Assembly (NCBI GenBank): GCA_041747555.1
Contig: JBGTEY010000008.1
Location: forward strand, 3,557-67,556
DNA: 64,000 nucleotides
From: Patescibacteria group bacterium
Lineage (GTDB): Bacteria; Patescibacteriota; Microgenomatia; UBA1400; PJMF01
Direction: 5' to 3'
Both the position numbers and the translations under genes were made by a program. The notes below the pieces were generated by a model, which was not told the DNA's origin, made no database searches, and saw only the letters and a program-made list of their open reading frames with translations. Shown here in pieces: positions 24,097-25,585 of the stretch. The first letter of the stretch is position 1. Each line of letters starts with the position of its first letter.

Positions 24097-25585
24097 AGAA
24101 AGGAGGTGATCCATCCGCACCTTCCAGTACGGATACCTTGTTACGACTTAGTCCTCATCGCCAACCTCACCGTAGAAGGGCCGCTCCAATAAATTGGTTA
24201 CGGTCACCCGCTTCGGGCGCTGCTGACTTTGCTGGCTTGACGGGCAGTGTGTACAAGGAGCGAGAACGTATTCACCGCAACCTGCTGATTTGCGATTACT
24301 ACCGATTCCGGCTTCATGAGGGCGAATTGCAGCCCTCAATCCGAACTGAGAAGTCGTTTAGAGGATTGGCTCAGGGTTACCCCGTCGCTACCCGCTGTCG
24401 ACTCCATTGTAGGATGTGTGTAGCCCCGGATGTAAGGGACATGCTGACTTGACGTCGTCCTCTCCTTCCTCCCCTGCAGAGCAGGAGCAGTCTCCTGTGA
24501 CACGTATAACACAGGACAAGGGTTGCGCTCGTTACCGCACTTAAGCGGACGTCTCACGACACGAGCTGACGACAGCCATGCATCACCTGTGTACCACTCT
24601 CGAAGAAATTCTGGTTTCCCAGAACGTGCAGGTACATGTCAAATCCGGGTAAGGTTTTTCGCTTTGTATCGAATTAAACCACATGCTCCACCGGTTGTGC
24701 GCTCCCCCGTCAATTCCTTTGAGTTTTAATCTTGCGATCGTACTCCCCAGGCGCCTTGCTTAACGCGTTAGCTTACGCCACCCCAACTTAAAGTCAGGGC
24801 AACTAGCAAGGAGTGTTTACGGCTTGGACTACACGGGTCTCTAATCCGCTTTGCTACCCAAGCTTTCGTCCCTGAGCGTCAGTCACGTCCTAGAAGTCTG
24901 CCTTCGCGCTTGGTATTCCTCTCGATATCTACGGATTTCACCCCTCCACCGAGAATTCTAACTTCCTCGAACGGACTCTATCTTTGCAGTATTCCTTGCC
25001 TTTCCAGAGTTGAGCCCTGGGCTTAGACAAGAAACTTACAAAGACGCCGACGGACCCTTTACGCCCAGTAAATCCGGATAACGCTTGCACCCTACGTATT
25101 ACCGAAGCTTCTGGCACGTAGTTAGCTGGTGCTTTCTAGCGAGGTACTGTCAAAATTCCTCCCTCGCCACAGCGGTTTACACTCCGAAAAGCTTCATCCC
25201 GCACGCGGTGTCGCTGCGTCAGACTTTCGTCCATTGCGCAATATTCCCGGTTGCTGCCACCCGTAGGTGTAGGCTCCGTGTCTCAGTAGCCTTGTGGCCG
25301 GTCGTGCTCTCACACCGGCTAGCCGTCGTTGCCTTGGTAGGCCATTACCCCACCAACTAGCTGATAGCGCGCAGGCTCCTCCTCTAGCGTCCGAAGACTT
25401 TGATCTTGCGACCATATGCGGTATTACCCCGCCTTTCGGCGGGCTATTCCCCACTAAAGGGTAGATTCCTACGTGTTACTCACCCGTCTGCCACTGTCCT
25501 CACTCCGAAGAGTGATTCTCGTTCGACTTGCATGCCTAAGGCACACCGCCAGCGTTCATCCTGAGCCAGGATCAAACTCTCATAA
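24097..25585 (-). rRNA. rrs: 16S rRNA on the minus strand, with no 23S or 5S adjacent
   Basis: The reverse complement contains AGAGTTTGATCCTGGCTCAG at the 5' end, the GTAATAC 530 region, and TGTACACAC...AAGTCGTAACAAGGTA...GGATCACCTCCTTTCT at the 3' end. Confidence 0.85.

What the first reader, a model, noticed from the sequence alone, without database searches (positions are those of the whole stretch)
24097..25585. 16S rRNA with substitutions at normally invariant decoding-centre positions (530 loop and C1400)
The 530-loop reads GTGCCAGAAGCTTCGGTAATAC instead of the near-universal GTGCCAGCAGCCGCGGTAATAC, which corresponds to C522A, C526U and G527U in E. coli numbering. The 1400 region reads ACACTGCCCGTCA instead of ACACCGCCCGTCA, a C1400U change at the base that contacts the tRNA wobble position. 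Positions 522, 526 and 527 (the m7G site) are classic streptomycin-resistance positions in other bacteria. These changes would also defeat standard 515F-type primers. Position 912 is the usual C, not the U described for Saccharibacteria. The rest of the gene is intact (5' AGAGTTTGATCCTGGCTCAG, 3' anti-SD CCTCCTTTCT), so a deeply divergent but functional rRNA is more likely than a pseudogene.
Basis: partly seen in the sequence, partly recalled or inferred. Interest (0 to 1): 0.6.

Follow-up and report, generated by a model that had tools for sequence, protein, structure and literature searches.

The report
Typical Microgenomates (CPR) 16S rRNA gene
This is a working 16S ribosomal RNA gene from an uncultured ultra-small (CPR/Microgenomates) bacterium, and its odd bases at "invariant" sites are inherited hallmarks of that whole lineage, mostly compensated by matching changes, not errors or a dead gene.

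Summary
The 16S gene (minus strand, 24099-25587) has C522A, C526U, G527U and C1400U, with C912 normal.

All of these are clade signatures. A522-U527 occurs in at least 240 public CPR sequences. A966 and G793 mark the Microgenomates-like group. U1400 marks a subclade that includes every close relative of the window. A505-U526 marks the window's own group. Position 505 covaries with 526 across all four Watson-Crick pair types.

The gene is under strong structural selection: 99% canonical pairs, 177 compensated pairs, and its own promoter-like site, processing stem and terminator-like hairpin.

The 530-site variants and OP11 primer mismatches were published by 2012. rsmG is reported absent from more than 90% of CPR genomes. 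E. coli tolerates C1400U and G966A singly. I found no paper on the functional meaning of the U1400/A966 pair. Verdict: an ordinary member of a known, unusual lineage.

The parts
24099..25587 (-). Complete bacterial 16S rRNA gene, 1489 nt, with no insertion
   Evidence: Rfam RF00177, model positions 1-1533, 1444.9 bits. 68.8% identity to E. coli. 91.2% identity to the nearest GTDB species representative, L024.
25096..25117 (-). 530 loop (E. coli 515-536), reading GUGCCAGAAGCUUCGGUAAUAC. A522 is at 25110, U526 at 25106, U527 at 25105, and G530 (25102) is unchanged.
   Evidence: alifold pairs 522 with 527.
25125..25127 (-). 5' strand of the 530 pseudoknot (E. coli 505-507), reading A505 G506 C507. 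A505 (25127) pairs with U526.
   Evidence: Covariation of 505:526 and 506:525 across 240 loci.
24246..24246 (-). U1400, where C is near-universal. This base stacks on nucleotide 34 of the P-site tRNA.
   Evidence: U is found in every relative at 81% identity or more whose 1400 region could be read. Role of C1400 from PMC2709574.
24663..24667 (-). h31 loop: A966 (24667) replaces the bacterial m2G966, C967 is kept, and A970 (24663) replaces C970
   Evidence: A966 in 118 of 141 loci where it could be read.
24837..24845 (-). 790 loop, reading AUUAGAGAC. G793 (24839) replaces U, while A790, G791, A794 and C795 are kept.
   Evidence: G793 in 87 of 101 genome loci where it could be read.
24148..24149 (-). 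A1492 and A1493, the A-site monitoring bases, unchanged
24099..24112 (-). 3' end GGAUCACCUCCUUU, carrying the anti-Shine-Dalgarno sequence
25882..25909 (-). Promoter-like site TTGGCA-16 nt-TATAAT with an extended TG, upstream of the 16S leader
   Evidence: 11 of 12 hexamer matches. This is a consensus match only.
25703..25756 (-). Leader arm of the precursor processing stem
   Evidence: Inverted repeats I1 (29 nt, 90% complementary) and I4 (13 nt, 85%) with 23947-23999. An equivalent stem with different sequence is present in 18 of 18 relatives tested.
23947..23999 (-). Trailer arm of the precursor processing stem
23913..23940 (.). Perfect 12-bp hairpin flanked by A and T runs, downstream of the trailer. 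Probably a bidirectional terminator ending the 16S transcription unit.
   Evidence: Inverted repeat I3 and the sequence itself. Function is inferred.

Best explanation
This is the functional, stand-alone 16S rRNA gene of an uncultured Microgenomates-type ("Pacebacteria"-like) CPR/Patescibacteria bacterium. It is about 91% identical to its nearest sequenced relative.

The substitutions at normally invariant sites are inherited clade signatures, and they are nested. A522-U527 is shared widely across CPR. A966 and G793 are shared by the Microgenomates-like group. U1400 is shared by a subclade (Collier-, Woese- and Pacebacteria-type genomes). A505-U526 is shared by the window's own group.

In helix 18 the four changes are two stacked base-pair swaps, C522-G527 to A-U and G505-C526 to A-U. 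These keep the 530 pseudoknot and loop geometry. G530, A1492 and A1493 are untouched, so A-site decoding should work in the canonical way (inferred). Loss of G527 removes the substrate of RsmG, which fits the reported near-absence of rsmG in CPR.

In the P site, both bases that hold tRNA nucleotide 34 are replaced (C1400U stacks on the base; G966A contacts the backbone), and the 790 loop has U793G. In E. coli each of the two P-site changes is viable alone with reduced activity. The lineage therefore probably runs a slightly remodelled but working P site (inferred).

Whether the changes are adaptive or are compensated drift in a reduced genome is not shown.
For: Identity and completeness: full-length RF00177 match.

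Lineage:
- The nearest relatives are Patescibacteria or Pacebacteria MAGs at 86-91% identity.

Not an artefact: all close relatives from independent assemblies share A505, A522, U526, U527, G793 and U1400.

Compensation and covariation at 505:526, given A522-U527:
- C-G 86, U-A 19, A-U 21, G-C 14.
- U526 is always opposite A505.
- A525 goes with U506 in 37 loci.

Nesting:
- 966 versus 793: A/G 106, G/U 19.
- 35 of 37 U1400 sequences have A966.
- NJ tree.
- 1400 is U in 46 of 70 genome loci but only 4 of 53 loci with R526.

Structural selection:
- 445 pairs are 99.1% canonical.
- 177 pairs show both-side changes, against 35-57 in slid controls.
- Window versus L113: 145 differences, 37 doubly compensated pairs, and only 2 changed pairs non-canonical.
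- There are also compensated swaps in h28, h29 and h35.

Expression signals: promoter-like site, a leader-trailer stem of about 45 bp, and a terminator-like hairpin. The stem is conserved in 18 of 18 relatives with different sequences.

Literature:
- GTGCCAGAAGNNTCGG variants in OP11/WS6/OD1 were tabulated from a 2007 database, and a primer was designed for them (PMC4103545).
- OP11 has 3 mismatches at the 515 site and an internal mismatch in the 1391-1407 primer (PMC3592464).
- rsmG is present in under 10% of CPR genomes and over 90% of other bacteria (PMC12641178).
- E. coli C1400U grows at 1.4 versus 1.7 doublings/h with 53% translation activity. G966A grows at 1.7 doublings/h with 32% activity (PMC2709574).
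Against: - No expression or read-level data were available for this genome.
- A second rRNA operon outside the 64-kb window cannot be excluded.
- rsmG, rsmD and rpsL are not in the window, so their presence or absence in this genome is unknown.
- The covariation structure was predicted from the same alignment, so the counts lean towards it, although the slid controls are far lower.
- The promoter and terminator calls are consensus matches only. The promoter count in the region is not above shuffles.
- E. coli data show that C1400U lowers activity and mRNA engagement, so "works normally" is an inference from conservation, not a measurement.
- Most relatives have U505 opposite C526, a mismatch, so strict pairing at 505:526 is not required in this clade.
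Confidence: 0.9

Rival explanations
1. The unusual bases are sequencing or assembly artefacts, or a chimera.
For: The window comes from a metagenome-type assembly. An independent Logan assembly of SRR28170463 breaks about 35 nt into the 16S, so the gene itself was not re-observed in a second assembly of the same organism.
Against: The same states at 505, 522, 526, 527, 793, 966 and 1400 occur in about 20 different species-level genomes from unrelated projects. The changes are pairwise compensated. The whole gene keeps 99% canonical pairing.
Confidence: 0.01
2. The gene is a pseudogene or a silent extra copy, and the cell relies on a canonical 16S elsewhere.
For: The gene is unlinked from 23S and 5S, and substitutions hit sites called universally conserved. 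Only 64 kb of the genome is visible.
Against: Its substitutions relative to relatives are overwhelmingly compensatory: 37 double changes against 2 non-canonical pairs versus L113. It is full length with intact G530, A1492, A1493, C1402, G926, G1338, A1339 and anti-SD. It has a promoter-like site, a conserved processing stem and a terminator-like hairpin. The same signature is the only 16S type recovered around the pattern hit in the 120 species representatives scanned, including closed genomes CP011212 and CP066688. No second 530 site exists in the window.
Confidence: 0.03
3. The 530-loop changes were selected as intrinsic resistance to streptomycin-type aminoglycosides. Resistance is their main function.
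For: From established knowledge (not tested here): rrs mutations at E. coli positions 522, 523 and 526, and loss of RsmG methylation of G527, give streptomycin resistance in mycobacteria and other bacteria. U527 cannot be m7G-methylated, and rsmG is nearly absent from CPR.
Against: Clinical resistance mutations weaken a pair (G505.U526, U522.G527). Here both partners changed, so pairing is restored. Position 526 takes all four bases with matching 505 partners across CPR, which looks like neutral covariation and not one selected allele. C912 and the 1490 region are canonical. No phenotype can be measured here.
Confidence: 0.1
4. U1400 (and perhaps other changes at conserved sites) spread because of mobile introns with homing endonucleases that insert next to it. 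The route would be either exon co-conversion or escape from cleavage.
For: 12 of 124 related loci carry a 0.4-1.0 kb insertion between C1395 and C1397. The one in L101 encodes a LAGLIDADG-type ORF and has a group II intron domain hit. Other insertions lie near 790, 1080, 1450 and 1499.
Against: The insertion occurs on both U1400 (8) and C1400 (4) backgrounds. Most U1400 genes, the window's included, have no insertion. No endonuclease target has been defined.
Confidence: 0.05

Closest known systems
16S rRNA of candidate division OP11 / Microgenomates (CPR, Patescibacteria), for example Pacebacteria, Woesebacteria, Collierbacteria and Daviesbacteria MAGs
   Same: Shares the A522-U527 530-loop variant, A966, G793 and, in the subclade, U1400. 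The rRNA is short, and the 16S is unlinked from 23S. It mismatches 515F, 806R and 1391R primers. Identity to named members is 80-91%.
   Different: The window has the less common A505-U526 version of the pseudoknot pair (21 of 121, against U505.C526 in 85). That exact 530 sequence, GAAGCUUCGG, is not in the 2007 primer survey. It carries no intervening sequence, unlike several close relatives. The nearest species representative is only 91.2% identical.
E. coli 16S P-site mutants C1400U and G966A (Shoji et al. 2009, PMC2709574)
   Same: The same base changes at the same positions. They show that each change alone is compatible with growth.
   Different: Those are single engineered mutations in an otherwise canonical ribosome, with 53% and 32% translation activity. 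Here both occur together naturally, along with U793G and many other lineage changes, and are conserved across a clade.
Streptomycin-resistant rrs 530-loop alleles and rsmG (gidB) loss
   Same: The same nucleotides are involved (522, 526, 527). The m7G527 target is lost.
   Different: Resistance alleles are single uncompensated changes arising under drug selection. The window's changes are old, lineage-wide and compensated on both strands. Resistance was not tested.
Saccharibacteria (TM7) 16S with the atypical base at position 912
   Same: Another CPR lineage whose 16S departs from a conserved, antibiotic-linked position. Some Saccharibacteria-labelled genomes also have A522-U527.
   Different: The window has the usual C912. 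The Saccharibacteria-like sequences in the sample keep U793 and C1400.

Membership tests
Bacterial small-subunit rRNA (Rfam RF00177) | Full-length match to the covariance model above the gathering score | tested here: met
   1444.9 bits against a gathering score of 50, model positions 1-1533, not truncated.
Bacterial small-subunit rRNA (Rfam RF00177) | Secondary structure maintained by compensatory change among relatives | tested here: met
   445 pairs, 99.1% canonical, 177 pairs with both-side changes against 35-57 in slid controls.
Bacterial small-subunit rRNA (Rfam RF00177) | Core functional nucleotides present (G530, A1492, A1493, C1402, G926, A790, G1338, A1339, A1518/A1519, anti-SD) | tested here: met
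   All are unchanged. The exceptions at conserved sites are C1400U, G966A and U793G, plus the compensated 505:526 and 522:527 pairs.
Bacterial small-subunit rRNA (Rfam RF00177) | Expressed and assembled into ribosomes | not testable with these tools
   Only indirect evidence: a promoter-like site, a conserved leader-trailer stem and a terminator-like hairpin.
Microgenomates/OP11-type CPR 16S | Closest relatives by sequence are Microgenomates-group genomes | tested here: met
   The best hits are Patescibacteria, Pacebacteria, Woesebacteria and Microgenomates MAGs at 85-91%. The window falls inside that clade on the NJ tree.
Microgenomates/OP11-type CPR 16S | The 530 site reads GTGCCAGAAGNNTCGG (A522/U527), as catalogued for OP11/WS6/OD1 | tested here: met
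   The window reads GTGCCAGAAGCTTCGG. The catalogue is in PMC4103545 Table 1.
Microgenomates/OP11-type CPR 16S | Small CPR-type genome context (reduced metabolism, unlinked rRNA genes, standard code) | tested here: met
   No 23S or 5S in 64 kb. Dense housekeeping genes for glycolysis, UvrABC, Lon and ClpB. All three stop codons are used. Genome size is not visible.
rRNA pseudogene | Truncation, or uncompensated substitutions that break helices | tested here: not met
   The gene is full length. Only 2 non-canonical pairs among the changed pairs (145 differences) from the nearest insertion-free relative.
Streptomycin-resistance rrs allele | A change at 522, 523, 526 or 912-915 that weakens a pair or contact, plus a resistant phenotype | tested here: inconclusive
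   The positions match, but both pairs are restored to Watson-Crick A-U and 912 is canonical. The phenotype cannot be tested.

The most novel reading that the evidence does not exclude
A large Microgenomates subclade has co-evolved a remodelled 30S P site. Both bases that hold the wobble nucleotide of the P-site tRNA are replaced (G966A, then C1400U nested within it), together with U793G, loss of the m7G527 and m2G966 targets, and a 530 pseudoknot that tolerates a U.C mismatch. This would change how initiator and elongator tRNAs are held, or how reading frame and antibiotics are handled. It would be a natural counter-example to the "universally conserved" decoding-site core, and I found no paper in the searchable library that analyses it functionally.
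Probability: 0.25. Interest if true: 0.6.

Novelty: new member of a known kind. Interest (0 to 1): 0.3.

Why it matters
For this window it mainly settles an annotation question. The gene is a genuine, probably sole, 16S of a CPR bacterium. It should not be flagged as a pseudogene or an error, and it will be missed by 515F/806R amplicon surveys, a known blind spot.

More broadly, the comparison shows that C1400 and bacterial G966, usually described as invariant contacts to the P-site tRNA wobble nucleotide, are both replaced in a whole clade of bacteria. It also shows that the 530 pseudoknot pair 505:526 covaries through all four Watson-Crick pairs in CPR. That offers natural variants for ribosome biochemists, and a direct rRNA-side explanation for the reported absence of RsmG in CPR.

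Tried and rejected
2. I looked for a specific covarying partner of position 1400 within the G793 clade. Many columns agree at about 0.9, which reflects shared ancestry and not a partner.
3. I tried to find the source genome through the MnmA protein. The only hit was a 3.2-kb Logan contig that ends 35 nt into the 16S, so it gives no independent check of the 530 or 1400 bases.
4. I looked in the window for rsmG, rsmD, other 16S methyltransferases and S12 by Pfam across 50 ORFs. None was found, so the rsmG question could only be answered from the literature at lineage level.
5. Literature searches for C1400U, U1400, the exact 530 strings, OP11 signatures and RsmG in Patescibacteria found primer-mismatch catalogues and E. 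coli mutant data. None gave a functional description of U1400 or A966 in CPR. Harris et al. 2004 on OP11 could not be retrieved under the PMC id I guessed.
6. Two regex attempts for the 1396 insertion failed because of a pattern error before worked.
7. I considered an organelle or contaminant origin and rejected it. The flanking genes are bacterial housekeeping genes, and the 16S nests inside CPR.

Full report
**What is there**

Rfam's bacterial SSU model matches window 24099-25587 on the minus strand over its full length (model 1-1533, 1444.9 bits). The gene is 1489 nt. The window contains no 23S or 5S rRNA. It does contain five tRNAs, including tRNA-Ile(GAU) at 20085-20159, about 4 kb downstream, with a ClpB gene in between.

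I aligned the RNA-sense sequence to E. coli rrsB. My typed reference was validated by its 1542-nt length and by the landmarks at 515 and 1391.

| Change | Window position |
|---|---|
| C522A | 25110 |
| C526U | 25106 |
| G527U | 25105 |
| C1400U | 24246 |
| C912 unchanged | 24721 |

The canonical 22-mer of the 530 loop occurs once in the window, with exactly three mismatches.

Position 505 is A, not G (25127). The neighbouring pair 522:527 is also A-U. The four changes amount to two stacked, fully compensated base-pair swaps. G530, G506-C525 and C507-G524 are untouched.

**Distribution in public genomes**

The records are almost all CPR/Patescibacteria:
- Named groups include Daviesbacteria, Woesebacteria, Collierbacteria, Pacebacteria/Paceibacterota, Shapiro-, Curtiss-, Levy-, Beckwith- and Berkelbacteria, and some Saccharibacteria.
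- Many other records carry evidently wrong titles such as "uncultured Pseudomonadales".
- The closest 16S genes are L024 (UBA1370, 91.2%), L113 (90.2%), L040, L108 and L030.

The A522-U527 variant is therefore common in this part of the tree.

**Covariation at the pseudoknot**

The scan patterns left 526 free, so the loci test whether 505 follows it:

| 526 | 505 |
|---|---|
| G | C in 86, U in 8, G in 2 |
| A | U in 19, G in 4, A in 1 |
| U | A in 21 of 21, window included |
| C | G in 14, U in 85, A in 1 |

In addition, A525 goes with U506 in 37 loci. All four Watson-Crick combinations therefore occur at 505:526, which is direct comparative support for the pair. The large U505.C526 class is a mismatch I cannot explain. 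The window's group looks like a repair of that state, and L115 (A505.C526) is a possible intermediate.

**Other conserved sites that differ**

I read the rest of the Rfam alignment against E. coli numbering. Further departures from strongly conserved consensus bases are:
- G966A (24667)
- C970A (24663)
- G976A (24657)
- U793G (24839)
- G818A and A819C (24814, 24813)

There are also compensated swaps in very conserved helices:
- h28: 930:1387 goes from C-G to A-U, and 931:1386 from C-G to G-C.
- h29: 941:1344 goes from G-C to C-G.
- h35: GGG/CCC becomes CGC/GCG.

G966A matters for interpretation. According to Shoji et al. (PMC2709574), C1400 stacks on anticodon nucleotide 34 of the P-site tRNA and m2G966 contacts its backbone. 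Both bases that hold the wobble nucleotide are therefore replaced here.

**The changes are nested clade signatures**

The evidence comes from cross-tabulations and an NJ tree of positions 500-1407 for 105 sequences:
- 966 against 793: A966 with G793 in 106 loci, G966 with U793 in 19.
- U1400 is almost always inside A966 (35 of 37).
- After recovering genes with an insertion next to 1400, U1400 is found in 46 of 70 genome loci. It is found in only 4 of 53 loci of the R526 set.
- Every relative at 81% identity or more whose 1400 region could be read has U1400 and G793.
- A505-U526 is confined to the window's immediate neighbourhood.

The order is: A522-U527 is broadest, then A966 and G793, then U1400, then A505-U526.

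**Functional or not**

I aligned the window with 24 insertion-free relatives at 80-91% identity (A1) and folded the window-occupied columns with alifold:
- 445 pairs are predicted, and 99.1% of cells are canonical.
- 177 pairs show changes on both sides. Sliding the partners by 1-3 columns gives 35-57.
- Against L113 there are 145 differences, 93 of them in paired positions. These comprise 37 doubly compensated pairs, 16 one-sided changes that remain canonical, and only 2 non-canonical pairs.

The structure was predicted from the same alignment, so these counts lean towards it, but the contrast with the controls is large.

The gene also has its own transcription signals:
- A promoter-like site on the minus strand: TTGGCA, 16 nt, TATAAT, with an extended TG (25909 to 25882).
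- An interrupted leader-trailer stem of about 45 bp (25703-25756 with 23947-23999).
- A perfect 12-bp hairpin flanked by T runs (23913-23940).
- A leader-trailer stem at a similar distance but with different sequence in all 18 relatives tested (scores 12-23, shuffled maximum 9-12).

Assembly error and pseudogene are therefore both very unlikely. A second copy outside the window cannot be formally excluded.

**Context in the window**

Fifty ORFs scanned with Pfam give ordinary housekeeping genes of a reduced genome: glycolysis, UvrABC, LexA, Lon, ClpB, trigger factor, and MiaA, MiaB and MnmA. None is RsmG, RsmD or S12. Whether this genome lacks rsmG therefore cannot be answered from the window.

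**Comparison with what is known**

- Nunoura et al. 2012 (PMC4103545 Table 1) tabulated 530-site variants from a 2007 database. The canonical sequence accounts for 101,157 of 102,106 bacterial entries.
  - GTGCCAGAAGCGTCGG has 59 entries (OP11).
  - GTGCCAGAAGCCTCGG has 32 (OP11, WS6, OD1).
  - GTGCCAGAAGCATCGG has 33 (WS6, OD1).
  - GTGCCAGAAGAATCGG has 12 (WS6).
  - They designed a primer for these variants. The window's GAAGCTTCGG is not in that table.
- Klindworth et al. (PMC3592464) report that OP11 has three mismatches to the 515 primer, four to a 785 primer, and an internal mismatch in the 1391-1407 primer.
- Schulz et al. (PMC5644168) describe the same amplicon blind spot.
- A 2025 survey (PMC12641178) finds rsmG in over 90% of non-CPR genomes but under 10% of CPR genomes. 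It does not link this to G527. The U527 seen here supplies that link on the rRNA side.
- Tsurumaki et al. 2022 on CPR ribosomes (PMC9297842) do not mention positions 530, 966 or 1400.
- In E. coli, C1400U supports growth (1.4 versus 1.7 doublings/h, 53% translation activity) and so does G966A (1.7 doublings/h, 32% activity). C1400U also arises spontaneously to detoxify orthogonal 30S subunits by lowering mRNA engagement (PMC8986856).

**How it most likely works**

- Shown: the gene is complete, structurally constrained, and carries lineage-typical bases. The helix-18 changes are pair swaps.
- Inferred: the 530 loop keeps its geometry, and A-site monitoring by G530, A1492 and A1493 is canonical.
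- Inferred: G527 and G966 methylation are absent because the target bases are gone.
- Inferred: the P site holds nucleotide 34 with U1400 and A966, probably with somewhat different affinity, in ribosomes that have had a long time to adapt.
- Not shown: any effect on antibiotic sensitivity. The comparison with streptomycin-resistance mutations is weak, because those mutations break pairs that are restored here.

**Verdict**

But the gene is an ordinary representative of a known unusual lineage whose primer-site deviations have been in the literature for over a decade.

The pieces that appear under-described are the joint replacement of C1400 and G966, the four-way covariation at 505:526, and the widespread U505.C526 mismatch. 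These are properties of the clade, visible in public data, and not of this window.

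Noticed in passing
window 24667 (A966), 24839 (G793), 24663 (A970), 24657 (A976), 24813-24814: Further departures from strongly conserved 16S bases that the finding did not list. The most notable is G966A, the bacterial m2G966 that contacts P-site tRNA nucleotide 34 together with C1400. 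U793G in the 790 loop is another.
   Followed up: yes
L001-L120 (for example L108, L022, L114), E. coli positions 505 and 526: 85 of 120 GTDB species with A522-U527 have U505 opposite C526. This is a pyrimidine-pyrimidine mismatch at a pseudoknot pair that otherwise covaries cleanly. L115 has A505.C526, a possible intermediate towards the window's A-U.
   Followed up: partly
L101 1688-2655; also L040, L107, L109, L086, L034, L090, L083, L044, L028, L073, L155: Close relatives carry 0.4-1.0 kb insertions between C1395 and C1397 of the 16S, four bases from position 1400. In L101 the insert encodes a 173-aa LAGLIDADG-type ORF (1709-2230, minus strand) and gives an Rfam group-II-D1D4-1 hit (2249-2325). 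The insertion occurs with both U1400 and C1400. The window's gene has none.
   Followed up: partly
L024, L077, L107 (about E. coli 1080); L016, L077 (about 1450); L107, L087, L086 (about 1499); L086 (about 790): Additional intervening sequences lie at other highly conserved 16S sites in relatives, including the nearest relative L024 (about 870 nt at roughly position 1080).
   Followed up: no
window 20085-25909: The 16S is a stand-alone unit: there is no 23S or 5S in 64 kb, and a ClpB gene (20223-22838, minus strand) lies between the 16S and tRNA-Ile(GAU). The MnmA gene (tRNA U34 2-thiolation, 25883-27016, minus strand) ends inside the 16S promoter-like site.
   Followed up: partly
L113, L030, L023, L040, L120, L100, L006 and many others (record titles): Public records carrying CPR-type 16S genes are titled "uncultured Pseudomonadales", "Gammaproteobacteria", "Limisphaerales", "Clostridia" or "Nanoarchaeia archaeon". 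These are probably taxonomic mislabels or bin contamination.
   Followed up: no
window 28529-36195: A cluster of genes for a RimK-like ATP-grasp, a MATCAP-like peptidase, a sugar-transfer-associated ATP-grasp, a 7TM protein of the type usually fused to an inactive transglutaminase, and a transglutaminase-core protein. UvrC overlaps the end of the cluster in the ORF calls.
   Followed up: no
window 14591-16384 (-), 27042-28529 (+), 23166-23825 (+), 1242-2081 (+), 57504-59287: Sizeable ORFs (219-597 aa) with no Pfam match at E<=1e-3 or 1e-5.
   Followed up: no
L121-L240 (for example contigs Ga0115104_*, Ga0256411_*): Some metagenome or metatranscriptome hits combine A525-A526 with U506 and very AT-rich flanks (for example AATTTTCTCTAATTAT). 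They may be organellar or from other deep lineages and not CPR. Their identity was not checked.
   Followed up: no
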